This document shows, in pieces, positions 2,348 through 46,056 of a stretch of DNA of 48,278 nucleotides. Position numbers and translations under genes: made by a program. Source of the stretch: Candidatus Sungiibacteriota bacterium (GTDB taxonomy: Bacteria; Patescibacteriota; Minisyncoccia; Sungbacterales; SURF-37); the NCBI GenBank assembly GCA_016186145.1, contig JACPMF010000007.1, forward strand, positions 85,302-133,579, given 5' to 3'. How positions within the stretch are numbered: position 1 is the first letter of the stretch; each line of letters begins with the position of its first letter. A model generated the notes under the pieces. The model had not been told where the DNA came from. It was given only the letters and a program-made list of their open reading frames with translations, and ran no database searches.

Positions 2348-2654
2348 CCGCCGCGAGAATTTTCCATTACGGAGATTTTGGTCGCAAATGGTGAAAGCGG
2401 CGAAAAGGGAAACCCGAGCCGCAGCGTAAGGGCGAAAAGCGTTTAAATAGCTTTTCGCGGGCATTGCGAGGAAGCGAGCGAAGCGAGCTCCCGCAGCAGG
2501 ATGCCCGGGAACGGGTTCCCCTCGACGACGCGTGTCCAGGGTGTAGAACTGCGCGTGCCGCTTCGCGGCATGCTCGTTACACCCGTGCGGAAGCTATTCA
2601 AACGCTTCCGCACCCATTTGTCAAAATCGCAGTTCTGGAAAATTCTCGCGGCGG
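2348..2654. other. ~300-nt GC-rich structured intergenic element closed by a perfect 19-bp helix; contains two inverted copies of structured module 2
   Basis: CCGCCGCGAGAATTTTCCA (2348-2366) is the exact reverse complement of 2636-2654. Inside are many hairpins, and module-2 copies at 2430-2510 (+) and 2535-2603 (-). Confidence 0.45.
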
Positions 2655-2724: not shown

Positions 2725-3723
2725 ATGAGAAATAACGAGCATTTACGGAAAACTCTTGGAAAACACCGGAGGTGGTTTTTGGTTTTCGGCGGGGTATTGA
2801 CTTTAGCGGTTACCGCCATTTTCTTCTTTGTACCCTTCTCACCCAAAGAAAATAAACGTTATTCAGGCCCGCCCAAAACAAAAGAAGAGGTAATTGAGCT
2901 ATTAAACCGCGATACTGACAACGACGGCCTGAAAGATTGGGAAGAGAAAATATACGGAACTGACCCGGAAAATGCCGATACTGACGGCGACGGAACTCCC
3001 GACGGCGAAGAAATAAAACTTTCAAGAAACCCGCTCCGCCCCGGGCCGGGAGACGAACTCTCTATCCCGCTCCCCCCGCCAACAAACGGCAACAAGACAG
3101 AGGCTTTGGCAAACGAATTCATCGGCCGCTCGCTCACCCAAATCCTTGCCGAGAGCGTAACAGGAGGAGAATTACCAACCGATCTCTCGGGCGTGCCCGC
3201 CCTTAACACCTATACGCAAAAACTCGGCGAGGAGCGCCCCCTCGACAAAGTCATACCGCCGGAAACGCGAGAGCTTGCCCTGTCGGACGACAACTCGCCG
3301 GAGACGGTTAAAAAGTACTTCAACCGCATCGCGGATATTTACGATAAAAATTTCTCGCCAATTGATAGCGACATAAATATCCTGTATCTTGCCGCGGCGG
3401 GCAACAACCCGAAGGCTTTCAGGCGGCTTGACGCCAATGTAAAAGCGCTTGAAAACGCCATAGCAGAAATAAAAAAAACAACAGTGCCCTCAAAGTGGAC
3501 CAAATTCGCCAAAGACGATATCTGGTACTTGTCTAAAACACTTGCTGCCGTGAAAATTCTTAAAAATAGCGAGAATGACCCTGTTTCATCACTTCTTATC
3601 TTGCGAGACCGTATTCAACTAGTGGAAGACATGAAAAATTTATATCTTGACACCAAAAAAAACTTAGCTGCCGCCGGAATCGCCTTTGAAAAAGACGAGT
3701 TGGCGTCTTGGCTTTTGCAATAA
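2725..3723 (+). CDS. Membrane-anchored protein with thrombospondin-type-3-like Ca-binding repeats
   Basis: ATG at 2725 is in frame with the longer track ORF and follows a TATAAT at 2712-2717. TM segment WFLVFGGVLTLAVTAIFFFV. Asp-rich repeats DTDNDGLKDWEE...DTDGDGTPDGEE. Confidence 0.65.
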   Translation: MRNNEHLRKTLGKHRRWFLVFGGVLTLAVTAIFFFVPFSPKENKRYSGPPKTKEEVIELLNRDTDNDGLKDWEEKIYGTDPENADTDGDGTPDGEEIKLSRNPLRPGPGDELSIPLPPPTNGNKTEALANEFIGRSLTQILAESVTGGELPTDLSGVPALNTYTQKLGEERPLDKVIPPETRELALSDDNSPETVKKYFNRIADIYDKNFSPIDSDINILYLAAAGNNPKAFRRLDANVKALENAIAEIKKTTVPSKWTKFAKDDIWYLSKTLAAVKILKNSENDPVSSLLILRDRIQLVEDMKNLYLDTKKNLAAAGIAFEKDELASWLLQ

Positions 3724-10947: not shown

Positions 10948-11364
10948 ATGCGTCAATTCCAAGTTCCCCAATTTATAAACATCGAAGACAAAATTATCGG
11001 GCCGCTCACGCTAAAACAATTTCTCTATCTTGTCGGCGGAGGGGCTGCCGTCCTCCTCGCGTGGTTTGGTCTCAACACATTCTTTTTTGTTCTCGTTTCG
11101 GCGCCGACAACAGCCCTTTCTCTTGCGCTTGCTTTCTTAAAAATTAACGACCAAACATTTCCAACGGTCTTTATGAATAGTTTAAACTTCTACCTAAAAC
11201 CCCGGCTCTACTTGTGGAAACGGGCCGCCCCAGCAAGGACGGCCGGCATGCTTCCAAAAGAAGACGCGGAAAAACAAACAAAAATCAAACTTCCGACACT
11301 CACCGAGTCAAGACTAAATGACCTTTCCTGGAGCTTAGACATTAAGGAGAAACTTAACCGTTGA
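10948..11364 (+). CDS. PrgI/VirB3-like small membrane protein
   Basis: MRQFQVPQFINIEDKIIGPLTLKQFLYLVGGG... followed by two TM segments is the PrgI-family N-terminal pattern. Adjacent to VirB4. Confidence 0.6.
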   Translation: MRQFQVPQFINIEDKIIGPLTLKQFLYLVGGGAAVLLAWFGLNTFFFVLVSAPTTALSLALAFLKINDQTFPTVFMNSLNFYLKPRLYLWKRAAPARTAGMLPKEDAEKQTKIKLPTLTESRLNDLSWSLDIKEKLNR

Positions 11365-11366
11365 TA

Positions 11367-11449
11367 GAAGCGGATCTATGCGGATGACAACGCGGAAAAA
11401 ACGCGGATCCGCATGAATCCGCGTAGCTATCCGTATTTATCCGCTTCTA
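11367..11449 (+). repeat. 83-nt intergenic repeat, copy 2
   Basis: See 10861-10943. Begins 2 nt after the upstream stop codon (TGA 11362-11364) and ends 2 nt before the ATG at 11452. Confidence 0.9.
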
Positions 11450-11451
11450 AT

Positions 11452-12117
11452 ATGCAGCAGACCGAATCGCAAAAGGCCGCGAAGGCAAAGGCGGCACAGG
11501 ATTTCCTCGCAGTCGACTTTATCCGAGACGGCGTTATTTCCCTTAGAGGCACCCAGGGACTACGAATGGTCCTAATGGCGTCCTCTTTCAACTTTGCCCT
11601 CAAGTCCTCTGAAGAACAAGACGCGACCATCATGCAATACGAAAACTTTTTAAATTCTTTGGACTTTCCAATCCAGTTCGTAATCCACTCCAGAAGACTC
11701 AACATAACTCCATACCTTGAAACCCTCAAAGAGCGGGAAAAAGAAGAAACGAACGAGCTGTTAAAAATCCAGGTCGGCGAATACATCGAATTTGTGCGTT
11801 CTTTCGTCGAACTGACTAACATCGTCACAAAAACTTTTTATGTAATCGTGCCGTTTACACCGACAATCGCGGAGAAGGCGGGTGTTGCCTCGTTTTTACC
11901 GGCGTTTTTCAAAAACAAGAAGGACGCCGGCGGAACCGATAACGGAAATTCTTTCACAGAGCACAAAAACCAGCTTTTACAGCGAGCAGACGCGGTATCC
12001 GCCGGATTGAGACGGTTCGGCATACGAAGCGCTGCGCTGAATACAGAAGAACTCGTCGAGCTTTTCTACGGACTCTACAACCCCGCAGAGGCAGAGAGAC
12101 AGAAGCTTAAAGAATAA
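11452..12117 (+). CDS. VirB4 N-terminal-domain-like protein without an ATPase domain
   Basis: ATG at 11452 (the track start 11413 lies inside the repeat). FIRDGVISLRGTQGLRMVLMASSFNFALKSSEEQD...FLNSLDFPIQFVI resembles the N-terminal region of Gram-positive-type VirB4 proteins. No Walker motifs. Confidence 0.45.
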   Translation: MQQTESQKAAKAKAAQDFLAVDFIRDGVISLRGTQGLRMVLMASSFNFALKSSEEQDATIMQYENFLNSLDFPIQFVIHSRRLNITPYLETLKEREKEETNELLKIQVGEYIEFVRSFVELTNIVTKTFYVIVPFTPTIAEKAGVASFLPAFFKNKKDAGGTDNGNSFTEHKNQLLQRADAVSAGLRRFGIRSAALNTEELVELFYGLYNPAEAERQKLKE

Positions 12118-12120
12118 TCA

Positions 12121-12209
12121 ACGAATTACGAATCTTTTGCGAATCTACGAATACTCGTTGCTGTCGCGTGAAATATTATTCGTATATTCGTACTGGATTC
12201 GTAATTCGC
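12121..12209. repeat. Imperfect palindrome built from 4 (A/G)CGAAT + 4 ATTCG(T/C) units
   Basis: Left-arm units at 12121, 12128, 12139, 12147. Mirror units at 12178, 12186, 12197, 12204. CGAATTACGAATC (12122-12134) pairs perfectly with 12196-12208. Confidence 0.85.
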
Positions 12210-12227
12210 TGGTGGAGCGAAGCGGAT

Positions 12228-14042
12228 ATGGCCATTCTTGGTTTCGGAAAAAAACAAAGACAAACAGAAGAAATACTCCCGGTTTTTCCGGAAGAAATTT
12301 ATCGCGCGGCGGAAATAACGCTCAAAGACGTCATCGCGCCGTCAGCCCTTGAAATCAGTCCGAATTTTCTGCGTCTTGGAGAGCGTCTCGCGCGCACTCT
12401 TTTTGTATTTTCATATCCCCGGTTTCTGCACACGAACTGGTTCTCGCCGATCATTAATCTCGATAAAATCTTTGATATTTCTATCTTTATTCACCCGGTA
12501 GACACTGCGGTAATACTTCGCGAGCTAAGAAAGCAGGTGGCGCGGGTACAGTCGCAAATTTCCCTCCGCGAAGAAAAAGGCCTCGTTCGAGACCCGATGC
12601 TTGATACGGCGTATCGAGACCTTGAGGTGCTGCGCGACCGCCTCCAGCAGGCGCAGGAACGACTTTTTAACGTCGGCCTCTACATAACGGTCTACGGATC
12701 AAACGAACAAGAACTTGATAAGGCGGAAAACGAAATTCGGTCAATGATGGAATCGAAGCTCGTCTACATAAAACCCGCGCTCTTCCAACAAGAAGAGGGA
12801 TTCAATGCAACCCTTCCGTTAAACACCGACCATTTGCTTATCCATAATTACCTGAACTCGGGCCCGGTATCCTCAACTTTTCCGTTCGTCTCTTTCGATC
12901 TTACCTCCAACAAAGGCGTGCTCTACGGCATCAACCGGCACAACAACTCCTTAATTCTCTTTGACCGCTGGTCCCTCCCAAACGCAAACTCGGTCACCTT
13001 TGCCGTCTCGGGGGCGGGGAAATCATATGCAACAAAACTCGAAATTCTCCGCTCGCTCATGTTCGGCGGAGAAGTCATTGTCATCGACCCGGAACGCGAG
13101 TACAAGTATTTAACCGAGACCGTTGGGGGTGCTTACTTCAATATCTCACTCGCCTCGCCCCATCACATAAATCCGTTCGACCTCCCGCTCCCCCGCGAGG
13201 ATGAATCGCCGGCAGATGTCCTTCGCTCAAACATCGTAAACCTCATTGGGCTTTTCCGCATCATGCTCGGCGGACTCACGCCGACCGAGGACGCCATCCT
13301 CGACCGGGCAATTACCGAAACGTACGCGGCGAGAGACATCACCCCTGAATCGGATTTCACAAAAACAAGCACCCCCACCCTCTCCGACCTTGCCCTAGTC
13401 CTTGCAAACACCGAGGGCGGAGATGAACTTGCGGTGAAACTGAAAAAGTACACCGAAGGAACATGGGCCGGGTTCATAAACCAGCCAACCAACATTAATG
13501 TGCAAAACCGCCTTGTGGCGTTTTCGGTACGGGACATGGAAGAAGAACTCCGGCCCGTCGCCATGTATATCGTTCTCCATTACATTTGGAATATCGTCCG
13601 GTCAGAACTCAAACAGCGCCTGTTGGTGGTAGACGAAGCGTGGTGGCTTATGCGCCAAGAAGACGGCGCATCGTTCCTTTTCGGCATCGCAAAGCGGGCA
13701 CGGAAATATTATCTCGGCCTTGCCACCATTACCCAGGACGTAGCCGACTTTTTGGGTTCGCCCTATGGCCGCCCTATTGTTACAAACTCTTCAATGCAAC
13801 TCCTCCTCAAACAGTCTCCGGCGACGATAAAAACCGTAGTCGAAGCATTCAATCTTACCGAGGAAGAAAAATTTCTGCTCTTGGAAACAGAAGTCGGGGA
13901 GGGCATCTTTTTTGCCGGCTTAAAGCATGTCGCCATCAAGGTTATCGCCTCCTATACCGAGGACCAAATCATCACTACCGACCCCGCGCAGCTTATGGTT
14001 ATCAGAAAAGCAAAAGAAGAGTTTCAGAAGGCGGGACAATAA
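12228..14042 (+). CDS. virB4: VirB4/TrbE-family conjugation/T4SS ATPase
   Basis: ATG at 12228. Walker A is VSGAGKSYA and Walker B is LLVVDEAW, with a VirB4-like N-terminal domain. About 600 aa. Confidence 0.85.
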   Translation: MAILGFGKKQRQTEEILPVFPEEIYRAAEITLKDVIAPSALEISPNFLRLGERLARTLFVFSYPRFLHTNWFSPIINLDKIFDISIFIHPVDTAVILRELRKQVARVQSQISLREEKGLVRDPMLDTAYRDLEVLRDRLQQAQERLFNVGLYITVYGSNEQELDKAENEIRSMMESKLVYIKPALFQQEEGFNATLPLNTDHLLIHNYLNSGPVSSTFPFVSFDLTSNKGVLYGINRHNNSLILFDRWSLPNANSVTFAVSGAGKSYATKLEILRSLMFGGEVIVIDPEREYKYLTETVGGAYFNISLASPHHINPFDLPLPREDESPADVLRSNIVNLIGLFRIMLGGLTPTEDAILDRAITETYAARDITPESDFTKTSTPTLSDLALVLANTEGGDELAVKLKKYTEGTWAGFINQPTNINVQNRLVAFSVRDMEEELRPVAMYIVLHYIWNIVRSELKQRLLVVDEAWWLMRQEDGASFLFGIAKRARKYYLGLATITQDVADFLGSPYGRPIVTNSSMQLLLKQSPATIKTVVEAFNLTEEEKFLLLETEVGEGIFFAGLKHVAIKVIASYTEDQIITTDPAQLMVIRKAKEEFQKAGQ

Positions 14043-14211
14043 AAGGCTTTGTCCAAAATTTGGAGGCGGGCGAACAAATTTTGGTTACAAAACCTTTACC
14101 CTGTTAAATAATTTCGCCTTTGGCGAAATTGCCGCAGAGCGGCATTTAACAGGGTGCTGAATTTTATAGTTTCATTTACTCGCTTTGCTCGTAAATTCAA
14201 ATAAAATTCGC
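14040..14211 (+). repeat. Family-A structured intergenic cassette, copy A (sense to + strand genes)
   Basis: Starts at the virB4 stop codon. Long hairpin 14042-14097, then CCCTGTTAAAT (14099-14109)/ATTTAACAGGG (14144-14154) enclosing two hairpins, then the shared ~60-nt leader ending at ATG 14212. Confidence 0.85.
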
Positions 14212-14763
14212 ATGCCTGAAGCCGCAACACAAACAATCGAGGACGCGCCGGAAGCAAAACAGGTAGAAGAGGGCGAACAACAAGGAGAAAAGAACGCCGA
14301 CGCTAAGAGCGATTCAAAAATATCAACCGCGCAAGCCGGACTTATGATCGGCGTAGCCCTGCTTTTTGACGGGGCCCAGTTTGTAATCGGGGCGCTTGCC
14401 GGACTTACCGTATTTCTCCTCCCGCTCGGCATTGCGGTCGGATGGGTTGTTGATATTTGGGCATGGCTTACATTCTTTTTATGGCTGCATTCGCTTGGAT
14501 TGAGTATGATAAAGAAGGGTGGGGCTAGTGGAGGCGGTTTGGGGAAAGAGCCGTTTGTCATTATCGCGCTCGCGTTCGGTATTGAATTTATACCCATCAT
14601 CAACGCGCTCCCGGCCTGGACCGCAGCCATCGCAACATTGATTTTTAGACAGCGCACCGAAGCCATCCTTCGGACCGCGGGTGGAATAGAAAAAGCGCTG
14701 GAGCCAACATCCAAACTTAAACTCAAAAGTCTATCGTCCAAAACCGACAGCGAAAATGAATAA
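14212..14763 (+). CDS. Membrane protein (4 TM) with acidic N-terminus
   Basis: ATG at 14212 sits directly after the shared leader. The hydrophobic core is in operon orientation. The mirror ORF on the minus strand is rejected. Confidence 0.6.
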   Translation: MPEAATQTIEDAPEAKQVEEGEQQGEKNADAKSDSKISTAQAGLMIGVALLFDGAQFVIGALAGLTVFLLPLGIAVGWVVDIWAWLTFFLWLHSLGLSMIKKGGASGGGLGKEPFVIIALAFGIEFIPIINALPAWTAAIATLIFRQRTEAILRTAGGIEKALEPTSKLKLKSLSSKTDSENE

Positions 14764-15733
14764 ATCCATTTCACAATTTTTCGTTCTCATATTATTACTT
14801 GCCGCTCTTTCCCCGCACGCAGCACTCACCCAAACGCTTCAAAACCTGACCTTGGCGATCAACCCGCCCTTTCCAAAAGCGGAAGAGGAGGTACAGGCGA
14901 AGGCAATTCTTGTCGGAGCCGATCAAGACCTTTCGTCTTTTGAATGGTACAAAGACGGCAAGCAGGACAAATCAGCATCAGGAAAAGGCAAAAATGTTTT
15001 TATATTCAAAGTTGGAAACGGGCCAAGAACAATTATTGACGCCGTCGTCATGACCCCTGACGGGAACCGTCTGTCTGCAACGCGGGCAATCACCAGAGAA
15101 CGTCCGGTTATAATATGGTCGGCAAATACTTCGGTTCCGCTTTGGTACAAGGGCAAACCCCTACCAAGCCCCGGGTCAACCGTAACGATTATGGCGCTTC
15201 CCGGCGCCGGATTCGGAGAGTCCGCGTCGGAGCTCTTCTACTCATGGAACATCAACCTCGAACCGCATCCGGAAGTCTCCGGCATCGGAAAAAACAAATT
15301 CACGCTCAAAACATCGCTGGTCCCCGACGTCAGCCAGCAGATTATCGTCCGAATCTCAAACGCGAACCAGACAATAGCACAAGAAGCAACCCTTATCCTG
15401 CCGACCCGCAGTACAGAGCTTCTGGTATATAGACTTACCCCCGCCGGACTCACCGACTTCTCAAAAACAATATCCGAATTCGGTGGCACGGCTGGCGGGA
15501 TTTTTGACTTCATCGCCACCCCGTTCTATTTTCGCCAAGACCTCGCCTTTCCACCCGTCTTCGTATGGTCTGTCAGCGGACAGGCCTCTCCGAGCGGTGA
15601 TAAACCAAATATCTTAAGCATTAAAACCAACTCCGGAGAATCTTCCGAAAGCGCTGTCTCGATAAGCGCATCGGCCGGCAAAGGAATTGAGAAACAAGAG
15701 GCAGAATATTTATTTAGAGCGCGCTTCCGGTGA
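14756..15733 (+). CDS. Secreted hypothetical protein
   Basis: Signal-peptide-like N-terminus (FFVLILLLAALSPHAAL). Overlaps the upstream stop by 8 nt, consistent with translational coupling. Confidence 0.6.
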   Translation: MNKSISQFFVLILLLAALSPHAALTQTLQNLTLAINPPFPKAEEEVQAKAILVGADQDLSSFEWYKDGKQDKSASGKGKNVFIFKVGNGPRTIIDAVVMTPDGNRLSATRAITRERPVIIWSANTSVPLWYKGKPLPSPGSTVTIMALPGAGFGESASELFYSWNINLEPHPEVSGIGKNKFTLKTSLVPDVSQQIIVRISNANQTIAQEATLILPTRSTELLVYRLTPAGLTDFSKTISEFGGTAGGIFDFIATPFYFRQDLAFPPVFVWSVSGQASPSGDKPNILSIKTNSGESSESAVSISASAGKGIEKQEAEYLFRARFR

Positions 15734-15837
15734 AGCTGAATCATGAATAATGAATTAGAAATCAGAAATAAAAACTACTTTTCGCGTTCATCCGCATTCA
15801 TAATTCATTATTCATAATTCCTGATTCCCGATTTTAA

Positions 15838-16287
15838 ATGTCCAAAACGCCCATCATAACATTCTTTTTCATTGCAATAGCCATACTGCTTGGCGCCGAT
15901 TTCGTTTATGCCGTGACCGTCGAAATTGCCGGCCAAAACGAAGCGGTCCAACAACAGCTTGCCGCGGCAACCGCAAGCGACTATTTGAGCAATCTCTATG
16001 TATGGATGCTCGGCATTGTCGGTCTTGCAAGTTTGTTCGCCCTTATTTACGGCGGCGTTCTTTATATTTTTTCCGGAGCAATTGAGTCAACCTCTGAAGC
16101 GAAACGATGGATGACAAACGCCTTGTGGGGCCTGCTTCTTGCCGCCACATCATGGCTTATTCTCAATACCATCAATCCGGAACTTGTAAAAAAATTCGGT
16201 GTTGGAGAGATCATTTATAAATACTGCATGAAAGCAGCAAAAACCGCGGAAGATAGGGCGGTCTGTGAAAAAACAAGAGAGCAATAA
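15838..16287 (+). CDS. T4SS pilin-like (TrbC/VirB2-like) two-TM protein
   Basis: Signal/TM segment, then two hydrophobic helices (...LGIVGLASLFALIYGGVLYIF...ALWGLLLAATSWLILNTINPEL). Size and context fit a pilin. Confidence 0.55.
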   Translation: MSKTPIITFFFIAIAILLGADFVYAVTVEIAGQNEAVQQQLAAATASDYLSNLYVWMLGIVGLASLFALIYGGVLYIFSGAIESTSEAKRWMTNALWGLLLAATSWLILNTINPELVKKFGVGEIIYKYCMKAAKTAEDRAVCEKTREQ

Positions 16288-17640: not shown

Positions 17641-18099
17641 TCAAGGGTATGGCTTAATCACAACCCTTCTTCCTTCTCCCTCTCCAATTGATTCGGTGGT
17701 TATGTCCGGGTATTCGGAAAGAACAGTATGGACTGTACGCCGCTCGAACGGAGACATTGGTTTTAAAACAATTTCTTTGCGATACAAACGAACCTTCTTC
17801 GCAACACGCTTTACCTCTTCCTTCAACTCCTCAAGACGGTGGAGACGGTATCCATTGATATCAACCAGAAACTTAACCCCCAACTCCCCGGTTTCTTTTT
17901 CGACAAGCCGTTTAATAAGATATTCAAACGCGAAAAGATTCTCCGCCCTGGAACCAATGAGAAGCCGGCCGTCCGGGGTCACAACATTAAAATAAGAGGA
18001 GACGTCTTCCGGACGTCCGCCCTCCTCGACGGCCGCCTCAATACCCGCCCTCTCTAAAACTTCTGCGATTTTTTTAGCGATAAGTTCCGTATGATTCAC
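17641..18099 (-). CDS. jag: Jag/SpoIIIJ-associated RNA-binding protein (KH + R3H)
   Basis: Sits downstream of yidC. The C-terminus ...RRTVHTVLSEYPDITTESIGEGEGRRVVIKP is R3H-like. Confidence 0.8.
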   Translation of the reverse strand: MNHTELIAKKIAEVLERAGIEAAVEEGGRPEDVSSYFNVVTPDGRLLIGSRAENLFAFEYLIKRLVEKETGELGVKFLVDINGYRLHRLEELKEEVKRVAKKVRLYRKEIVLKPMSPFERRTVHTVLSEYPDITTESIGEGEGRRVVIKPYP

Positions 18100-18173
18100 T
18101 TCGTTGTAGAGCGAGAGCCGCGAGGTGGGCGTTGAGTTAGAAAAGAAGGGCTGGGAACTTGCTAATAGTTCAA

Positions 18174-18932
18174 CTAACCGTTCTGCACCTGATTCTTAAT
18201 CCCTGGCTCTTTAAACTTTTTTCTTAACCAAATTTGCTCCACTATAGCAAGGAGATTCATTATTGTCCAGTAGAGCGGCAAAGCCGCCGGCAACGAGAAT
18301 GACCAGATAGTAATAAGTACCGGAAAAAAATACTTCATCTGCAACGAAAGAATTTTTGAAAGATCCGGCTCATGCGGTTTCGCGCTCCTTAGTGTCAGCG
18401 ATTCCGGCTGCGGAACAAGGCGCGCCTGCAGAAATTGCGACGCGCCCGCGAGAAATCCAATGATGTAGTTTTTTTCGGTCAGGCTCACTATGCCAAACAT
18501 GGTGGCGCTAAAAAATTCCGGTACTGCAACGACGGAGTAAAGCGCGGAAACATCTAGCGGCGAAAGCCCCCGCCAGAATACATTGTAGAGCGCTATAAGA
18601 AGCGGGAGTTGGACAAGAATAGGCAGGCACCCGGAAAACGGATTCACTTTTTCTTGCGCATAAAGCTCCATAAGACGGCGCGCTTGTTCATCTTTCTTCT
18701 CTTTATACTTTTCCTGTATTTCCTTTATCTTCGGGCCAAGTGAGCGCATCGCCGCCTGGCTTTTAAACATCTTGGCTGTGGCCGGGAAAAGCAAGATCCG
18801 CACGAGAACGGTGAGAGAAATAATCGCAAGGCCAAGGTCCGGAAAGGGAAGAAGTGAATATATAAAAATAAGCCCGTTAAAGAGCGGACGGTATAATATT
18901 TCATGGTATGCGCTATAAAGCATCTCGGGCAT
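18174..18932 (-). CDS. yidC: Membrane protein insertase YidC (short form)
   Basis: Five-TM core with ...NPFSGCLPILVQLPLLIALY... in the conserved rnpA-yidD-yidC-jag order. Confidence 0.9.
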   Translation of the reverse strand: MPEMLYSAYHEILYRPLFNGLIFIYSLLPFPDLGLAIISLTVLVRILLFPATAKMFKSQAAMRSLGPKIKEIQEKYKEKKDEQARRLMELYAQEKVNPFSGCLPILVQLPLLIALYNVFWRGLSPLDVSALYSVVAVPEFFSATMFGIVSLTEKNYIIGFLAGASQFLQARLVPQPESLTLRSAKPHEPDLSKILSLQMKYFFPVLITIWSFSLPAALPLYWTIMNLLAIVEQIWLRKKFKEPGIKNQVQNG

Positions 18933-19028
18933 GTTCTAGATACGAATTTCAAAGCTCAAATGATAATAGAATCAGGAATCAAGAATTAAGAATTATGAAT
19001 ACGAAGGGCGGTCTTTATTCCTAATTCA

Positions 19029-19286
19029 TTATTCATGATTCATGATTCGATATTTCCCTTCCACCGGGTCATATCCTCCTCTAGAAAACGGGGTGCAGCG
19101 TATAACTCTGTAAAGCGACAACATGCTCCCTTGTATCAGTCCATATTGACTAACAGCTTGATGTGCGTATTCTGAACAAGAAGGAAAAAAACGACACCTG
19201 CCACCGAAGGATATAAACCAATCGCTGTGGTCGGAAGAAAATGTGCGCTGCCAAATTCGGATGAGTGTTAAAACAATGGTTGTCAT
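19029..19286 (-). CDS. yidD: Membrane protein insertion efficiency factor YidD
   Basis: CRFFPSCSEYAHQAV...RCTPFSRGGYDP is the YidD signature. ATG at 19286 overlaps the rnpA stop (ATGA). Confidence 0.85.
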   Translation of the reverse strand: MTTIVLTLIRIWQRTFSSDHSDWFISFGGRCRFFPSCSEYAHQAVSQYGLIQGSMLSLYRVIRCTPFSRGGYDPVEGKYRIMNHE

Positions 19287-19630
19287 GATATAAGATTTGC
19301 TCTTACAAAAAGTTGCGCGAGAAGACAATAGAAGTTGCTTCTGGTAGCTTCCGTGGACGGCTTTCGGAAAATAACGGCAACATCATGCCCGCCCGCAATG
19401 ACAGATTGATGTTTGCGGACCCATTCAGCGGCACGACGCCGGATCTTGTTCCGTAAAACACTCCTCTTCGCTATCTTTTTGGGCACGATAAAAACAAAAC
19501 GGCTTCCTTTTTCTGTAGACCGCGCGAAGTACCGCATGGTAGCCAACTCATTTGAAACAATCCTGCCGCGGCGGACCGCCGCACCCACCTCAGAAGATGC
19601 CCGCAAACGGTTCACTCGAGGGAGAGCCAT
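19283..19630 (-). CDS. rnpA: RNase P protein component
   Basis: Start MALPRVNRL at 19630. Basic KKIAKRSVLRNKIRRRAAEWVR motif. Sits between rpmH and yidD. Confidence 0.85.
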   Translation of the reverse strand: MALPRVNRLRASSEVGAAVRRGRIVSNELATMRYFARSTEKGSRFVFIVPKKIAKRSVLRNKIRRRAAEWVRKHQSVIAGGHDVAVIFRKPSTEATRSNFYCLLAQLFVRANLIS

Positions 19631-19664
19631 AAGAGTCAAATAACCAATTACCGTTTGCCGGTAA

Positions 19665-19802
19665 TTAAGAAACGGCAAGACGCGCTCTCCTTTTCTTTCT
19701 GCGGCGGGTAAGGACCCTCCGCCCTCCTGCGGTGCGGGATCGCACCAAAAAACCATGGGTGCGCTTCCGTTTTCTTTTTTTGGGCTGATAGGTAACCGAC
19801 AT
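19665..19802 (-). CDS. rpmH: 50S ribosomal protein L34
   Basis: Hand translation gives [45 protein letters not shown]. Below the ORF-track size cutoff. Confidence 0.9.
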
Positions 19803-20064
19803 ATTTTAAATACTACCGTAAACAGTGAACGATGAACAGGGAACAAGACCTACCAACACGCAGTAGTCCACCGCCTCCTTTTTTCGTTTACTGATTCTCG
19901 CAATTAACAACATATAAACAGTTTGTTCAGAAAAGGAAGGTTTTCTTATTGTGGTTTGTTTAACGATAGTATTGGTATACTTGATAACAGAGCGTCAAGA
20001 CTGACGACGGAGAAATAATTACAAGTCTTGGTTCTAAAATAAATCCATATAAACAGGAGGCACT

Positions 20065-21435
20065 ATGGATTACCGCGAACTTTGGAAAGCAGCGCTTGGG
20101 GAAATAGAACTTGCGATCCCAAGACCGAGTTTTATTACATGGTTCAAAGAAACGGCTGTTTTTGAGATTTCTGATGGAATCGTAACAATATCGGTCCCAA
20201 ACGGTTTTGCAAAGGAGTGGTTGCAATCGAAATACAACAAATTCATTATCCGTGCCTTGAGAAATGTGGCGGACGATAGTGTCCGAGATGTTGCTTTTGT
20301 GGTTGGAAGGGCCTCGGTAGACGGAACCGGTGTAAAAACCAAGGAGCGTCAGAAAGTAAGGCTTATCCCAACCGTAAGCGATGAAATGCAGCTAAAAGAT
20401 CTGCATATTGACCCGGAAACCGGCCTTAACCCGCGCTATACATTTGAAAACTTTATCGTCGGGTCTTTCAACGAACTCGCGCATGGTGCTGCGCGCGCCG
20501 TTGTCCAAAACCTCGGTTCGGCCTATAACCCCCTTTTTATCTTCGGGGGTGTTGGTTTGGGAAAAACCCACCTCATACAGGCAATAGGAAACGAGATTGC
20601 CGGGAGCCACGGCGCAAAAGTCAGATATGTTACATCCGAAAAATATATGGGGGAGATCGTCGAGGCGCTTTCAAACCAGACAATCAATCAGCTGAAGGAA
20701 CGCTACCGGAAAGTCGACCTTCTCATTATGGACGACATCCAATTCATCGCAAGAACAGAGAAAATGCAGGAAGAATTCTTCCATACATTCAACGTCCTAT
20801 ACCAGCAAAATAAACAAATTGTAATATCCTCCGACCGTCCGCCGTCCGCAATCCCGACGTTAGAGAACCGCCTCCGCTCGCGTTTTGAAGGAGGGTGTCT
20901 TATTGACGTTGGGGAGCCGGATCTTGAAACACGCCTGACCATACTAAAAGCAAAAGCCGGTGAAAAAGGGATTGCCCTTCCGGAAGACGTATTTCTTCAC
21001 ATTGCGTCGGTCATCAAAAATAACATCCGGGAGCTTGAAGGGGCCCTTACCCGTCTCGCGCTCAGCGCCCGGACATCTTCCGCAACACCAACCCTCGAAG
21101 AGACAAAGAAAATACTCGAACAAGTAGCCCAAGCGCCAAAAAAATTCACTTCTCCTAAAAAAGTAATCAAGGTTGTCGCCGACTTCTACGAGATCATGGA
21201 AAAAGATCTCGTCAACCCAAGTAGAAGAAAAGAAATCGTGAAACCGCGCCAAATTGCGATGTATATTCTCCGTGAGGAGCTAAAGTGCTCATACCCTTTC
21301 ATTGGTGAAAAACTCGGAAAAAAAGACCACACGACAGCAATCCACGCGTGCAAAAAAATAGACGGGGAACTAAAAACAGACCTCGATTTACAAAACTCGA
21401 TAAAACTAATCAAAGAAAAAATCTACTCCGTCTAA
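20065..21435 (+). CDS. dnaA: Chromosomal replication initiator DnaA
   Basis: AGGAGG SD. Walker A is GGVGLGKTHL, with AAA+ domain III and a C-terminal DNA-binding helix (...KDHTTAIHACKKI). Confidence 0.95.
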   Translation: MDYRELWKAALGEIELAIPRPSFITWFKETAVFEISDGIVTISVPNGFAKEWLQSKYNKFIIRALRNVADDSVRDVAFVVGRASVDGTGVKTKERQKVRLIPTVSDEMQLKDLHIDPETGLNPRYTFENFIVGSFNELAHGAARAVVQNLGSAYNPLFIFGGVGLGKTHLIQAIGNEIAGSHGAKVRYVTSEKYMGEIVEALSNQTINQLKERYRKVDLLIMDDIQFIARTEKMQEEFFHTFNVLYQQNKQIVISSDRPPSAIPTLENRLRSRFEGGCLIDVGEPDLETRLTILKAKAGEKGIALPEDVFLHIASVIKNNIRELEGALTRLALSARTSSATPTLEETKKILEQVAQAPKKFTSPKKVIKVVADFYEIMEKDLVNPSRRKEIVKPRQIAMYILREELKCSYPFIGEKLGKKDHTTAIHACKKIDGELKTDLDLQNSIKLIKEKIYSV

Positions 21436-21697
21436 CAAGCTGTTCAATAAGGTGTGGGCGTACTTGTGTGTTTCTTTGTTAATAACTAGATGCGTATCGT
21501 GTTGAAAAAAAATGCTTTTTTTGTTTTTTAAAAAGATATGTTTTTTGTCCGCGCTATTTCCCAAGAATCTCCACATCTTTTCCATAAAGAGAAAATAAAA
21601 AATATTTCCTTAAAGCGCCGTACTACAACGTTATCCACCAGTTTTTCTTTCTAATAACAATAATAAATTTAAATTAAATATATTATTATAGTTACCT
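21436..21697. promoter_or_regulatory. Candidate oriC/DUE region between dnaA and dnaN
   Basis: TTATCCACC at 21631-21639, TCTCCACAT-like box near 21570, and a very AT-rich run at 21650-21690. Confidence 0.45.
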
Positions 21698-22795
21698 ATG
21701 AAAATAATCTGTACGAGAAACAACCTTCGCAATACCTTCCAGCTCGTAGAGCGTTTTACCGGAAAGAGCCTTACCCTTCCTATTCTTGGTAGTATATTTT
21801 TTGAGGCCGACGAGAAAAAAATACGGTGCGTGGCGACAAACCTTGAGGTTGGTATTGAGGTTGTTATGCCCGGGAAGGTTATCAGAGGCGGATCCGTTGC
21901 CATACCCGGAAGAATCGCGAACACTCTTGTTCAGTCCTTGGACGAGGAGAATGTTTTATTAGAAGAAAAAGACGGAGCGATCACTATAAAAACGGACTCT
22001 TCAAGTTTTACTCTTCAGGGGTTGTCTCCAAAGGATTTCCCGCCGCTTCCAAAGATCAAAAGGGAGCACGAATTCAGTATTCCAGCTAACATTCTTAAGA
22101 AAGGGCTTGTCCAGGTTCTTCCCGCCGTGTCTGTTTCTGACTTTAAGCCGGAGCTTTCTGGGGTTTATTTGAAGCGTGATGCGCGGGCGGTTACACTCGC
22201 CGCCACCGACTCTTTTCGTCTTGCTGAAAAACTTTTTCAGTTGCAAACACCCGGCGATGCTGTTTCTTGCATAATCCCTTGGAAGACATGCCAGGAGTTA
22301 TCAAGGATACTTCCGGAGGACGGAGAGGAATATGTTACCGTTCGCCAAGGAGAGAACCAGGTTATGTTTGATTTTTCAGAGGTTCATATGGTGTCGCGTC
22401 TTATCGACGGAACATACCCTGACTATGTGTCGATCATCCCTAAAGATTTTTCTTCTCATCTCGCTGTTCCGAGGGAAGATCTTGTAAAAAGGGTGAGAGC
22501 GGCAAGCGTTCTCTCGTCGAAACTGAACGATATCGTGTTGAGCTCGTCCGAGGACGAGGTGTTTATTGAAACCGCGAACTCTGAGTTAGGAAAGAGCCGT
22601 ATTCGGCTTTTGACCAAGGGAAGAGGAAAGGAAACAAAAGTTTCGTTCAACTTTCGTTACCTTTCAGACGGGCTTGAGGCAATAGACGGGGAAGAAGCGC
22701 TTATTTCGTTGAATGGCGACTCGTCACCGGCGCTCGTTTCCAGTTCCCAGGACCAGTCCTTCAGGTATATCCTTATGCCGATCCGGAGCGTCTGA
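21698..22795 (+). CDS. dnaN: DNA polymerase III beta sliding clamp
   Basis: 365 aa, immediately after dnaA, with a three-domain clamp-like pattern (...RLIDGTYPDY...). Confidence 0.9.
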   Translation: MKIICTRNNLRNTFQLVERFTGKSLTLPILGSIFFEADEKKIRCVATNLEVGIEVVMPGKVIRGGSVAIPGRIANTLVQSLDEENVLLEEKDGAITIKTDSSSFTLQGLSPKDFPPLPKIKREHEFSIPANILKKGLVQVLPAVSVSDFKPELSGVYLKRDARAVTLAATDSFRLAEKLFQLQTPGDAVSCIIPWKTCQELSRILPEDGEEYVTVRQGENQVMFDFSEVHMVSRLIDGTYPDYVSIIPKDFSSHLAVPREDLVKRVRAASVLSSKLNDIVLSSSEDEVFIETANSELGKSRIRLLTKGRGKETKVSFNFRYLSDGLEAIDGEEALISLNGDSSPALVSSSQDQSFRYILMPIRSV

Positions 22796-45483: not shown

Positions 45484-45542
45484 AAAAGGACGGTTCGATT
45501 TACGATGAATATAAATGGGCACATCTGGACTCGAACCAGCGT

Positions 45543-45615
45543 TCCCGGGCGTAGAACTGCGCCGCTTTCGGCGTGCTCGTTATGCCCGCTCGAAGCAAAG
45601 ACATTTGCTTCTCGC
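45543..45615 (-). repeat. Structured module 2, copy b
   Basis: GCGAG-[GAAGCAAA UGUC UUUGCUUC]-GAGCGGGCAUAACGAGCA-[CGCCG AAA GCGGCG]-CAGUUCUACGCCCGGGA. Confidence 0.7.
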
Positions 45616-45642
45616 CCTCTGCAATGCCTGCCCCGTTACAAA

Positions 45643-45828
45643 TGGGCGTAGTAGGGATCGAACCTACGACCTTTCGCATGCTTGCCCGCCCAAATTTCTG
45701 AACAATGGACGGTGCAGGATTCGAACCTGCGGCCCCTGCAATGTGAATACAGTGCTCTACCGCTGAGCTAACCGTCCAGAAATTTAGGCGGGTGAAAAGC
45801 GAACGCTCTGCCACTGAGCCATACGCCC
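45643..45828 (-). tRNA. Split tRNA with anticodon loop UUUUCAC (UUC, Glu-type): 37-nt + 35-nt halves separated by a 114-nt insertion carrying tRNA-Val
   Basis: Halves are 45828-45792 and 45677-45643. Joined they read GGGCGUA UG GCUC AGUGGCA GAGC G UUCGC UUUUCAC GCGAA AGGUC GUAGG UUCGAUC CCUAC UACGCCC A. Every stem is Watson-Crick. Confidence 0.7.
45706..45777 (-). tRNA. tRNA-Val (anticodon CAC), intact, no encoded CCA
   Basis: GGACGGU UA GCUC AGCGGUA GAGC A CUGUA UUCACAU UGCAG GGGCC GCAGG UUCGAAU CCUGC ACCGUCC A. Confidence 0.93.
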
Positions 45829-45933
45829 ATATCCATTTGTAACGGGGTGAAAGTCCCGACGGCTCCGCCGTCGCGGATCCTCGATTTTGCAGCTCCGACG
45901 TCAAGCTGGAGGCAAAATCGGGACAGCGCTCTA

Positions 45934-46015
45934 TCCCGGGCATGGTACTGCGCTGTCCGACTAAAGTCAGACTGCTCGTAATGCCCGCGAGAATCCTATT
46001 TAAACGGATTCTCGC
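45934..46015 (-). repeat. Structured module 2, copy a
   Basis: GCGAG-extended hairpin GAGAAUCC GUUUAAAUA GGAUUCUC-GCGGGCAUUACGAGCA-[GUCUGAC UUUA GUCGGAC]-AGCGCAGUACCAUGCCCGGGA. Confidence 0.7.
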
Positions 46016-46056
46016 CCAACTGAGCTATGTGCCCTTAACAACTAGAAAGCTAACAT

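What the first reader, a model, noticed from the sequence alone, without database searches (positions are those of the whole stretch)
45934..46015. Module 2: ~70-80-nt GC-rich structured repeat, four full copies with a conserved loop and fully compensated stems
The copies are at 45934-46015 (-), 45543-45615 (-), 2430-2510 (+) and 2535-2603 (-). The shared plan is: hairpin A, then CGGGYRU, then NACGAGCA, then hairpin B, then CGCAG-N5, then AYRCCCG-GGA. Hairpin A stems are completely different between copies (GAGAAUCC/GGAUUCUC, GCGAAAAGC/GCUUUUCGC, GCGGAAGC/GCUUCCGC). The loop is GUUUAAAUA in two copies and GUUUGAAUA in a third. The closing pair CGGGCAU/AUGCCCG becomes GGGUGU/ACACCC in the 2535-2603 copy, a double compensatory change. 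One G-U pair in hairpin B of copy a is tolerated only on the tRNA-sense strand. Two copies sit inside the outermost tRNA-like gene, in the D loop and the variable region; cutting them out restores AGUUGGUA and AGGAC.
Basis: seen in the sequence. Interest (0 to 1): 0.7.

Follow-up and report, generated by a model that had tools for sequence, protein, structure and literature searches.

The report
Hairpin insertion element in tRNA-gene loops
The repeat is real: it is a previously undescribed ~78-base, two-hairpin insertion element of ultra-small groundwater (CPR) bacteria that lands after a GG in exposed loops, mostly the D loop and variable loop of disabled spare tRNA gene copies, and it looks like selfish mobile DNA, not a working RNA or intron.

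Summary
All four copies exist and share one architecture. No Rfam family matches. Scans of public genomes and metagenomes gave about 45 distinct copies, all in CPR bacteria (Sungbacteria, Saccharibacteria, Parcubacteria, mostly groundwater). The stems covary strongly: five Watson-Crick variants of P1, three of P2, and GC/GC versus GG/CC in P3 with no exception.

The evidence favours a mobile insertion element over a functional RNA or intron:
- Two orthologous empty/filled site pairs show a discrete 76-78-nt insertion. The element reads 5'-G...CCCNGG-3' and the target is GG^A.
- Orthologous sites carry different variants, and identical cores occur in different genomes.
- About 25 copies lie in tRNA D loops (after G19) or variable loops (after G46), always in sense orientation. 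Every host is a disrupted or fragmentary tRNA next to or around an intact tRNA. That partner had the same anticodon wherever the host's identity could be read. Deleting the module never restores a recognisable tRNA (0 of 41).
- Stems are about 98% Watson-Crick. Both strands fold equally well, as RNA or as DNA.
- No transposase lies nearby, so the element is non-autonomous.

The mechanism is unproven. My leading guess is a single-strand-DNA, hairpin-recognising enzyme acting in trans.

The parts
45935..46015 (-). Module copy a, in the D loop of the outermost tRNA-like gene, after G18-G19. Parts: hairpin A 46015-45987; P1 45986-45981 with 45943-45938; P2 45980-45978 with 45948-45946; internal loop GA 45977-45976 / GCA 45951-45949; P3 45975-45974 with 45953-45952; hairpin B 45972-45955; 2-nt bulge 45945-45944; tail GGG 45937-45935.
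   Evidence: 63 bits
45544..45615 (-). Module copy b, in the variable region (after AGG) of the outermost tRNA-like gene. Its hairpin A is of the GCAAAUGUCUUUGC type. P1 has one A.C mismatch.
   Evidence: 67.7 bits
2432..2509 (+). Module copy c, in the loop of the hairpin GGGAAACCCG...CGGGTTCCCC inside the intergenic composite. It has the GG/CC variant of P3.
   Evidence: 69 bits. The orthologous site in L041 has the same hairpin A but a different core.
2536..2613 (-). Module copy d, inverted relative to c and inserted after GACAAATGG. The orthologous site is empty in L041.
   Evidence: (76.8 bits)
45516..46034 (-). Host of a and b: the outermost of three nested tRNA-Val(CAC)-type genes. It is disrupted by a, b, a 68-nt two-hairpin insert (45921-45854) and the cassette that holds the middle tRNA.
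   Evidence: The ortholog locus L099 has one plain tRNA-Val(CAC) with the same AGAGCGCTGTC segment.
2348..2654 (.). Host of c and d: an intergenic composite bracketed by a 19-bp inverted repeat (2348-2366 / 2636-2654). It is extremely stable as a nested fold.
   Evidence: (z = -9.8)

Best explanation
Module 2 is a small (76-82 nt), non-autonomous insertion element that spreads within and between CPR genomes.

Architecture:
- It is defined by structure plus a few fixed nucleotides: G-hairpin A-C, then a closing helix (P1 GGGNNU/ANNCCC stacked on P2 NNC/GNN, with a 2-nt bulge).
- Next come a conserved GA/GCA internal loop, a 2-bp P3 and a variable hairpin B.
- It ends in NGG.

Behaviour:
- It inserts immediately 3' of a GG, usually before an A, that lies in the loop of a hairpin-prone sequence.
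- Its commonest homes are the two GG dinucleotides exposed in a tRNA cloverleaf: the D loop (G18-G19) and the variable loop (G45-G46). It is always in the tRNA-sense orientation.
- It survives only in tRNA copies that are already redundant. These are outer shells or fragments left when a stem-flanked cassette with an intact tRNA (cognate wherever identity could be read) occupies the old gene.

Shown: the architecture, the family, the discrete insertion with presence/absence at orthologous sites, the target GG, the loop positions, the sense orientation, the non-functional hosts, and the absence of a linked enzyme gene.

Inferred: mobilisation acts in trans on folded single-stranded DNA, in the peel-and-paste style of HUH/Y1 transposases. 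The sense-strand cloverleaf presents GG in loops, and the hairpins plus conserved loop nucleotides serve as the enzyme's recognition features. An RNA intermediate is not excluded.
For: Family and structure:
- 41 distinct copies came from the two collection scans plus the window. Further copies came from the model searches: three divergent ones and one in L098.
- All true copies are in CPR MAGs or groundwater metagenomes. The single viral-collection match is a chance hit.
- The parsed architecture is shared by 39 of 41 copies.
- Pairing: 1031 WC, 12 GU, 5 non-pairs.
- Pair variants: P1 CA/UG 14, UA/UA 9, UG/CA 7, UU/AA 5, CG/CG 2. P2 UAC/GUA 14, AAC/GUU 11, UGC/GCA 9. P3 GC/GC 32, GG/CC 7 with no exception.
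- 97.9% of cells are paired. There are 65 double-change cells against 20.8 in shuffles (0 of 500 shuffles reach it), and the signal collapses when partners are slid.
- RNAalifold predicts the same 11 pairs.

Insertional nature:
- The d site is empty in L041 (GGCAAATGG|AGCCACGCG) and filled in the window and L050.
- L074 is filled (AACAAATGG[77 nt]AGAAAGCCGCGAGAAGG) where L041 is empty (AACAAATGG|AGAAAGCGGCGAGAAGG).
- Deleting exactly 78 nt restores the hicA frame REG|QRHSVFHNP in L031, and the module brings an in-frame TAG (sequence).
- The same site and hairpin A carry an unrelated, fully compensated core in L041 versus the window/L050.
- The D loops of the Thr nests in L076, L077 and L088 hold different variants.
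- Identical 50-nt cores occur in different genomes, with hairpin A and core types combined freely.
- Divergent copies keep hairpin A, P1 and the NGG tail but have a different interior.

Target:
- The 5' flank ends in GG in 43 of 44 copies. The element ends in NGG in 43 of 44. The next base is A in 35 of 44.

Hosts:
- 19-20 copies are in D loops and 5 in variable loops, all in sense orientation.
- 0 of 41 module-deleted hosts are recognised as tRNA. 21 of 41 have an intact tRNA within about 350 nt.
- Outer tRNAs show stem-breaking changes and further loop insertions.
- A relative has a single plain tRNA-Val at the locus.

Strand and chemistry:
- The fold is equally good as DNA and on either strand.
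- There is no GU/AC asymmetry.

No linked protein family was found, and there is no transposase in the window.
Against: - No mobilising enzyme has been identified.
- The geometry differs from characterised IS200/IS605 ends. Here the target abuts the foot of hairpin A, which leaves no room for the guide segment described for IS608 (PMC3201880).
- Some hairpin B loops are classic RNA tetraloops (GAAA, GUAA, one UUCG), which hints at RNA-level stability.
- The loci were found through the module itself. The rule 'only in dead tRNAs' therefore rests on about 25 hosts plus one unbiased locus series (L098-L100 and the window).
- Strict sense orientation and loop-only positions would also be expected if the element entered or had to be tolerated at the RNA level.
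- Copies sit at the syntenic tRNA-Thr locus of three genomes whose neighbouring proteins are only 40-60% identical. This could reflect long retention instead of re-invasion.
Confidence: 0.6

Rival explanations
1. RNA-level element. The module is an intervening sequence or mini-intron that is transcribed within pre-tRNAs and other RNAs. It is then cut out, either with ligation by a host RNA ligase or without ligation as for RNase III-excised rRNA intervening sequences. It may spread by reverse splicing into exposed RNA loops followed by reverse transcription.
For: - Copies are always in sense orientation in tRNA hosts, and only at the two tRNA positions that tolerate extra nucleotides (20 and 47).
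- Every kind of insertion seen in these nests lies in loops, never in stems.
- Precise in silico removal restores normal D and variable loops and the hicA frame.
- GNRA and UUCG loops occur in hairpin B.
Against: - Hosts are never otherwise intact tRNAs (0 of 41), and an intact tRNA (cognate wherever identity could be read) lies beside each tRNA host inspected where the contig extends far enough, so nothing requires excision.
- The anticodon-loop insertions in the same hosts cannot be removed to give a 7-nt cognate loop (sequences).
- No bulge-helix-bulge or ribozyme core is present, and there is no Rfam hit.
- Copies c and d are inverted within one composite, and both are intact.
- G-U pairs are only about 1% and show no strand asymmetry.
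Confidence: 0.13
2. Exapted functional RNA domain. The module is a protein-binding or processing handle, for example a nuclease entry or stop site, or an insulator, in the long precursors that carry nested tRNAs. It would help release or protect the intact inner tRNA.
For: - Invariant internal-loop nucleotides (CGAG...GCGCAG) and the tail sit within otherwise freely compensated helices.
- Modules lie 30-160 nt upstream or downstream of an intact tRNA on the same strand in 20 of 41 cases.
- The window genome encodes RNase P protein, RNase Y, PNPase and a NYN nuclease.
Against: - A close relative manages with a plain tRNA-Val and no module.
- The middle nested tRNA of the window has none.
- About 20 copies are not in tRNA contexts. 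These include one inside hicA, one in an insert behind mraY, and the inverted pair c/d.
- Variants are swapped at orthologous sites instead of being conserved.
Confidence: 0.1
3. Recombination site. The module is the folded attachment site (attC-like) of the system that builds the tRNA nests and the gene-3'-end replacements. A site-specific recombinase would recognise it, so it is not a transposon in its own right.
For: - It co-occurs with stem-flanked tRNA cassettes, and with a duplicated mraY 3' end in L002.
- It is conserved in structure but variable in sequence, as integron attC sites are (my own knowledge).
- Core exchange occurs at a fixed site.
Against: - Nests exist without it, for example the middle tRNA of the window.
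- Two empty/filled pairs show the module alone coming or going, with no cargo.
- No integrase lies nearby.
- It has no R-box-like GTTRRRY ends.
Confidence: 0.07

Closest known systems
IS200/IS605-family derived miniature elements (PATEs) and their single-strand 'peel and paste' transposition (PMC5027513, PMC3201880, PMC6006769)
   Same: - No terminal inverted repeats.
- Hairpins at both ends.
- Structure is conserved more than sequence.
- Insertion lies immediately 3' of a short fixed target, with no or minimal duplication.
- The element's own 3' end resembles the target (GG / NGG).
- Orientation is strand-specific.
- Non-autonomous copies occur.
   Different: - No TnpA has been found.
- The target abuts the hairpin foot, so the described guide/cleavage-site spacing is absent.
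- The second 'end' is a long-range closing helix with a conserved GA/GCA internal loop.
- The element is only about 78 nt.
- It has a strong preference for tRNA-gene loops.
REP/BIME and REPIN elements mobilised by RAYT/TnpA-REP (PMC3116915, PMC3337134, PMC8266576, PMC3733652)
   Same: - Short, abundant, hairpin-forming, non-autonomous repeats.
- They evolve as a population of variants within genomes.
- The enzyme would act in trans from a single-copy gene.
   Different: - REPs are 20-40-nt palindromes tagged GTAG or CGTC, and REPINs are two inverted REPs.
- Module 2 has two unrelated hairpins, no such tag, and fixed internal-loop nucleotides.
- It sits inside tRNA gene copies, not between genes.
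Archaeal and red-algal multiply disrupted tRNA genes with introns at non-canonical positions (PMC4090602, PMC3978253, PMC3728597)
   Same: Intervening sequences lie in D, anticodon and variable regions of tRNA genes. One gene can carry several insertions. Intron mobility between tRNA genes has been proposed (last point from my own knowledge).
   Different: - Those introns carry a bulge-helix-bulge motif, are removed by the splicing endonuclease, and sit in the only functional gene copy.
- Here there is no BHB, the organisms are bacteria, and the hosts are redundant, decayed copies.
Intervening sequences of bacterial 23S/16S rRNA removed by RNase III (own knowledge)
   Same: About 100-nt stem-loops replace the terminal loop of a host RNA helix. 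They are sporadically distributed and apparently transferable.
   Different: Those sit in functional rRNA, which stays active after fragmentation. Module 2 has been seen only in non-functional tRNA copies and non-coding composites.
Rickettsia palindromic elements (own knowledge)
   Same: A small palindromic selfish element is found inside genes at structurally tolerated places.
   Different: RPEs are translated in frame within working proteins. The one coding-region copy of module 2 (L031) introduces a stop codon.

Membership tests
Any Rfam family (including tRNA introns, ribozymes, GOLLD/ROOL, group I/II introns) | Covariance-model match at or near the gathering score | tested here: not met
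   - The window at gathering threshold gives only 2 tRNAs.
- E-value mode on both regions gives only noise at or below 25 bits.
- In 36 other module loci only tRNAs and one LSU start were found, and none overlaps a module.
Archaeal-type BHB tRNA intron | Bulge-helix-bulge at the two junctions (two 3-nt bulges separated by a 4-bp helix) | tested here: not met
   In the folds the junction nucleotides (..GG | G.. and ..NGG | A..) are unpaired multiloop residues. The flanks are too variable to form a conserved 4-bp helix.
Archaeal-type BHB tRNA intron | Removal yields a functional tRNA that the genome needs | tested here: not met
   0 of 41 module-deleted hosts are recognised by ARAGORN at six alternative boundaries. 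An intact tRNA, cognate wherever identity could be read, lies inside or beside the tRNA hosts inspected where the contig extends far enough.
Group I intron | Catalytic core (P3-P9) of at least about 200 nt | tested here: not met
   The element is 72-95 nt with two hairpins only, and there is no Intron_gpI hit.
MITE (classical) | Terminal inverted repeats | tested here: not met
   The ends are 5'-GYSRAAAGC.. and ..ANNCCCNGG-3', which are not inverted copies of each other.
MITE (classical) | Target-site duplication | tested here: inconclusive
   GG precedes the element and GG ends it. This is compatible with a 2-bp duplication or with none.
MITE / mobile repeat in general | Multiple dispersed copies with presence/absence at orthologous sites | tested here: met
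   There are 4 copies in 48 kb and 3-4 in one MAG. Two empty/filled pairs were found.
REP / REPIN-RAYT | 20-40-nt palindrome with a GTAG or CGTC tag, and REPIN as two inverted REPs | tested here: not met
   Hairpins A and B are unrelated in sequence, and no conserved GTAG/CGTC tag is present (definition from PMC3733652, PMC3116915).
REP / REPIN-RAYT | RAYT (Y1 HUH) gene in the same genome | not testable with these tools
   None was found among about 40 ORFs of the window or 20 ORFs beside modules, but whole genomes were not available.
IS200/IS605-derived miniature element | Subterminal hairpins, no terminal inverted repeats, insertion 3' of a fixed short target, strand-specific | tested here: met
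   All approximately 25 tRNA-hosted copies are in sense orientation.
IS200/IS605-derived miniature element | Cleavage sites recognised by guide sequences 5' of each hairpin foot, at a distance from the hairpin | tested here: not met
   The target GG directly abuts hairpin A (0-1 nt). This contrasts with the arrangement described in PMC3201880.
IS200/IS605-derived miniature element | Cognate TnpA and a full-length autonomous element | not testable with these tools
rRNA-type intervening sequence | Sits in a loop of a host RNA that stays functional and is excised by RNase III | tested here: inconclusive
   The loop position is met. Host functionality is not met. Excision cannot be tested without RNA data.

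The most novel reading that the evidence does not exclude
Module 2 and the stem-flanked tRNA cassettes around it belong to one so-far undescribed mobility system of CPR bacteria. The system recognises folded nucleic acid and inserts only into hairpin loops. This builds Russian-doll tRNA genes, in which each new intact tRNA displaces the resident one. The system works either through an RNA intermediate (a bacterial, protein-assisted mini-intron) or through a new kind of single-strand-DNA recombinase.
Probability: 0.2. Interest if true: 0.9.

Novelty: new variant of a known kind. Interest (0 to 1): 0.6.

Why it matters
- CPR genomes are small and are usually thought to carry little mobile DNA. 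Here is an abundant family of structured mini-elements that is shared across genomes labelled as different CPR phyla.
- Its target rule is unusually sharp: GG in hairpin loops, above all tRNA positions 20 and 47.
- It marks loci where tRNA genes have been overwritten by nested replacement copies. I found no description of this phenomenon in the paper library I searched.
- Practical point 1: these loci hide pseudo-tRNAs from tRNA finders.
- Practical point 2: the three short-read contigs retrieved for this locus all end inside the nest (L095-L097).
- Practical point 3: covariation tests on these loci would wrongly suggest a functional RNA, because selection or templated repair on DNA hairpins gives the same signal.
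- If an enzyme is found, loop-specific single-strand insertion would be a new targeting principle.

Tried and rejected
- **Rfam.** Three modes on the window and 36 loci gave nothing.
- **Viral contigs.** The scan gave one chance hit without hairpins.
- **Recurrent neighbouring protein.** All-against-all BLAST of 1084 ORFs from 37 loci gave only syntenic housekeeping genes or spurious ORFs across the repeat. Pfam on 20 flanking ORFs gave no transposase, integrase or RT, and one LAGLIDADG in L077.
- **Window proteins.** No mobile-element enzyme was found.
- **Replication-strand test.** dnaA/dnaN lie at about 20-23 kb, but GC skew is dominated by coding strand and fades after 30 kb. The leading/lagging assignment of a and b is therefore unsafe.
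- **Promoter scan of the nest.** No match.
- **G-U versus A-C asymmetry as a strand or RNA test.** The first count (12 vs 2) was biased by how stems were zipped. The symmetric count is 9 vs 5 and not significant.
- **BHB intron idea.** Rejected on structure and on host state.
- **K-turn reading of the GA/GCA loop.** Rejected, because covariation fixes the P2 register.
- **Retained tRNA expansion segment.** Rejected, because hosts carry other lethal disruptions.
- **Literature searches.** Searches for CPR tRNA introns, D-loop insertions, nested tRNAs and CPR repeats found nothing relevant.

Full report

- Copy a is 46015-45935(-).
- Copy b is 45615-45544(-).
- Copy c is 2432-2509(+).
- Copy d is 2613-2536(-).

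A degenerate pattern of the core matches exactly these four places, against none in 100 shuffles. A covariance model built later scores them at 63-77 bits, and the next best site in the window reaches 10.7 bits. Each copy folds into hairpin A plus a second, closed domain, with z-scores from -2.2 to -7.5.

The window is bacterial: it encodes a sigma-70 factor, PBP1, PNPase, RNase Y, DnaA, DnaN and RnpA. The protein next to the tRNA locus has its relatives in Sungbacteria and Parcubacteria.

**2. Anatomy**

Parsing 41 distinct copies gives one plan, read 5' to 3':
- G, hairpin A (7-12 bp), C.
- P1, GGGNNU pairing with ANNCCC.
- P2, NNC pairing with GNN, directly stacked on P1.
- An internal loop, GA opposite GCA.
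- P3, GS pairing with SC.
- Usually an A, then hairpin B, which varies in length and sequence.
- Back through a 2-nt bulge between P2 and P1 on the 3' strand.
- A tail, NGG.

Hairpin A comes in three loop types: GUUUNAAUA, GCAAAWGKNUUUGC, and GAGCGAGCGYA.

Across the 39 copies that the parser resolved (2 of the 41 failed), the helices contain 1031 Watson-Crick pairs, 12 G-U pairs and 5 non-pairs.
- The two free positions of P1 occur as CA/UG (14), UA/UA (9), UG/CA (7), UU/AA (5) and CG/CG (2).
- P2 occurs as UAC/GUA (14), AAC/GUU (11) and UGC/GCA (9).
- P3 occurs as GC/GC (32) or GG/CC (7), with no exception.

On a MAFFT alignment, 97.9% of cells are paired. There are 65 double-change cells against 20.8 in shuffles (0 of 500 shuffles reach the observed value). 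Sliding the partners by 1-3 columns lowers the paired cells to 23-48% and the covariation score from 0.379 to 0.011-0.091. RNAalifold finds the same 11 pairs unaided.

The positions that covary were left free in the search patterns. This is therefore a genuine test, although sub-families inflate the cell counts.

**3. Distribution**

No Rfam family matches in any mode.
- The scan of 185,579 species genomes returned 35 matches. Eight have both hairpins, and all eight are CPR MAGs labelled Saccharibacteria, Sungbacteria or unclassified. The rest are chance hits in high-GC genomes.
- The metagenome scan returned 58 matches. About 33 are true, mostly from groundwater projects.
- The viral collection gave one chance hit.
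- The model found three further divergent copies. L076:1252-1329 has the usual interior. L060:187-257 and L022:4362-4450 keep hairpin A, P1 and the NGG tail but have a different interior. The ends therefore matter more than the middle.

**4. It behaves as an insertion**

Aligning the window's c/d region with its homologues, together with the flanks listed, gives two clean empty/filled pairs.
- At the d site, L041 reads GGCAAATGG|AGCCACGCG. The window and L050 read GACAAATGG[GTGCGG...ACACCCTGG]ACACGCG.
- At a second site, L074 reads AACAAATGG[GTTGAAAGC...ATACCCGGG]AGAAAGCCGCGAGAAGG. L041 reads AACAAATGG|AGAAAGCGGCGAGAAGG, and the window reads GCAAATGG|TGAAAGCGGCGAAAAGG.

The unit is thus 5'-G...CCCNGG-3' (76-78 nt), placed between GG and the next base. 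This is compatible with either no duplication or a 2-nt GG duplication.

Over 44 copies the 5' flank ends in GG 43 times, the element ends in NGG 43 times, and the next base is A 35 times.

In L031 the module interrupts a hicA-like gene. Deleting exactly 78 nt restores ...LLFREG|QRHSVFHNPKNG..., whereas reading through meets a TAG inside hairpin B (sequence).

At the c site, L041 has the same flanks and the same hairpin A as the window and L050, but an entirely different and again fully compensated core. The D-loop modules of the tRNA-Thr nests in L076, L077 and L088 are three different variants.

Identical 50-nt cores recur in different assemblies (window d equals L022; L050b equals L027 apart from the tail N). 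One hairpin A sequence is combined with five core types, and one core with five hairpin A types. This pattern fits a population of copies that move and recombine. It does not fit one conserved gene.

**5. Where it sits**

Of 44-45 copies:
- 19-20 lie in a tRNA D loop immediately after G18-G19.
- 5 lie in the variable loop after G45-G46.
- All of these are in the tRNA-sense orientation.
- The rest lie in loops of other GC-rich hairpin composites, in hicA, or in an insert behind mraY.

The hosts are not working tRNA genes. After deleting the module at six alternative boundaries, ARAGORN recognises none of 41 hosts. In 21 of 41 cases it finds an intact tRNA within about 350 nt.

By eye, every host is one of two things. 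It is the outer shell of a nested pair or triple, or it is a 5' or 3' fragment lying 30-90 nt from an intact tRNA. Wherever the host's identity could be read, that partner has the same anticodon:
- Val-GAC in L035.
- Val-CAC in the window, L066 and L098.
- Met-CAU in L064.
- Thr-UGU in L076, L077 and L088.
- Ala-GGC in L059.
- Asn in L039 and L048.
- Lys in L087.
- Tyr in L076.
In L001 and L023 the enclosed tRNA is a tRNA-Ser inside a class II (Leu- or Ser-like) outer gene whose own anticodon I could not read.

Outer copies carry further insertions, all in loops (anticodon loop, T loop, or the loop of hairpin A itself in L098). They also show stem-breaking changes, for example the D stem of the L098 outer tRNA and the anticodon stems of the L076 and L088 outer tRNAs.

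In the window, the outermost gene (46034-45516) shares its AGAGCGCTGTC segment with the single, plain tRNA-Val(CAC) that occupies the same locus in a relative whose flanking protein is 81% identical. An 88% relative has a two-level nest. There the tRNA allele that is innermost in the window is the outer, module-bearing one.

A module therefore appears in a tRNA copy after that copy has become redundant. This is inference from these comparisons.

**6. RNA or DNA?**

Covariation by itself does not decide.
- G-U pairs are only about 1% of pairs.
- A symmetric count of isolated non-Watson-Crick positions gives GU 9, AC 5, other 5 (p=0.42).
- The module folds equally well on either strand, as RNA or as DNA.
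- Many hairpin B loops are C-GNA-G triloops. These are notably stable in DNA (my own knowledge). Others are GNRA or UUCG.
- Copies c and d are inverted within 100 nt, and both are intact.
- There is no bulge-helix-bulge, no ribozyme core, and nothing that needs the hosts to be repaired.

**7. Most likely mechanism**

I propose a non-autonomous element mobilised in trans, most plausibly on folded single-stranded DNA.

In the single-stranded sense strand of a tRNA gene, the cloverleaf exposes GG only in the D and variable loops. This would explain the positions, the strict sense orientation and the loop-only rule without any RNA step. It would also explain why hairpins with perfect Watson-Crick stems and a few fixed unpaired nucleotides are what is conserved.

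This is how IS200/IS605 elements and REP-like sequences are handled by HUH/Y1 enzymes (PMC5027513, PMC3201880, PMC6006769, PMC3333891). However, the geometry differs (the target abuts the hairpin) and no enzyme is known. I therefore do not file it in that family.

- Shown: the family, its structure, the discrete insertion, the target, the host state, and non-autonomy.
- Inferred: the single-strand-DNA route.

**8. Rivals**

- An excised intervening sequence or mini-intron (0.13).
- An exapted processing or protein-binding handle in nested pre-tRNAs (0.10).
- A folded recombination site of the cassette system (0.07).

The evidence for and against each is given in its own section.

**9. Things that led nowhere**

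- No recurrent neighbouring protein was found.
- No mobile-element enzyme is encoded in the window.
- The GC-skew test of replication strand was inconclusive.
- No promoter consensus was found.
- The six exploratory literature searches found no prior description. Two later searches only retrieved the comparison papers on REPIN/RAYT and IS608, and one query was rejected.

**10. Verdict**

The interpretation as a structured RNA module of a tRNA is only partly supported.

The best reading is a new kind of small, hairpin-defined insertion element of CPR bacteria that colonises loops of disabled tRNA gene copies. It is a new variant of a known general kind (REP, MITE and PATE-like repeats). Its target rule is unusual, and its setting of nested, overwritten tRNA genes deserves its own study.

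Noticed in passing
window 45516-46034 (-): Three tRNA-Val(CAC)-type genes are nested like Russian dolls: outer 46034-45516, middle 45828-45643, and inner intact 45777-45706. Each inner gene sits in the anticodon loop of the next one out, enclosed by a 12-15-bp stem. A relative (L099/L100) has one plain tRNA-Val at this locus, and another (L098) has a two-level nest.
   Followed up: partly
window 45797-45778 and 45699-45680 (-); L064: The stem flanks around the inner tRNA (TTTCACCCGCCTAAATTTCT ... CAGAAATTTGGGCGGGCAAG) are identical in L064, where the enclosed tRNA is Met(CAU) inside a Met-like outer gene. The flanks are conserved while the cargo differs. The L076/L077 flanks are about 80% identical by eye (not computed), although neighbouring proteins are only 40-53% identical. 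How these nests arise is unexplained.
   Followed up: partly
window 45854-45921 (-): A 68-nt two-hairpin insertion lies between the anticodon stem and loop of the outer tRNA. It also ends in GGGA and may be a sister family of module 2.
   Followed up: no
window 2348-2654: An intergenic composite is bracketed by a perfect 19-bp inverted repeat and folds with z = -9.8. It is conserved in L041, L050 and L074, with different modules present or absent. Its arms end in ACAAATGG, the same heptamer that precedes the middle tRNA in the nest.
   Followed up: partly
L098 2808-2968; L007 about 1540-1700; L050 about 3040-3130: A further repeat of about 150 nt ('module X') was seen. In L098 it is inserted into the loop of hairpin A of a module 2 copy. 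Modules therefore nest inside modules, again in loops.
   Followed up: no
L064, L088, L089 (outer tRNA T loops): Small hairpin insertions lie after TTCG in the T loops of outer tRNAs. All insertions seen in outer tRNAs are in loops, none in stems.
   Followed up: no
L002 about 6900-7300 (-): The last 66 nt of mraY are present twice at roughly 85% identity (estimated by eye, not computed). They are separated by a 230-nt insert that contains a module 2 copy. This looks like a replacement of the gene's 3' end, analogous to the tRNA replacements.
   Followed up: no
L031 about 7100-7330 (-): A hicA-like toxin gene is interrupted by a module. The gene also has an in-frame TGA downstream (NG*TSTVPRH), so it is either a pseudogene or is read with a reassigned UGA.
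   Followed up: partly
L077 3421-4221 (+): A LAGLIDADG-type endonuclease ORF (Pfam E = 5e-14) lies directly downstream of a tRNA-Thr nest and a truncated tRNA-Tyr-like start.
   Followed up: no
window 10948-16287 and 17641-22795: A type IV secretion-like cluster is present: PrgI-like, VirB4/TraG-like ATPase, and T4SS pilin. The jag-yidC-rnpA / dnaA-dnaN origin region is also in the window.
   Followed up: no
L095, L096, L097: Three short-read assemblies carry the identical 215-aa gene, and all three end inside the tRNA nest just after module a. Assemblies appear to break at these repeats.
   Followed up: no
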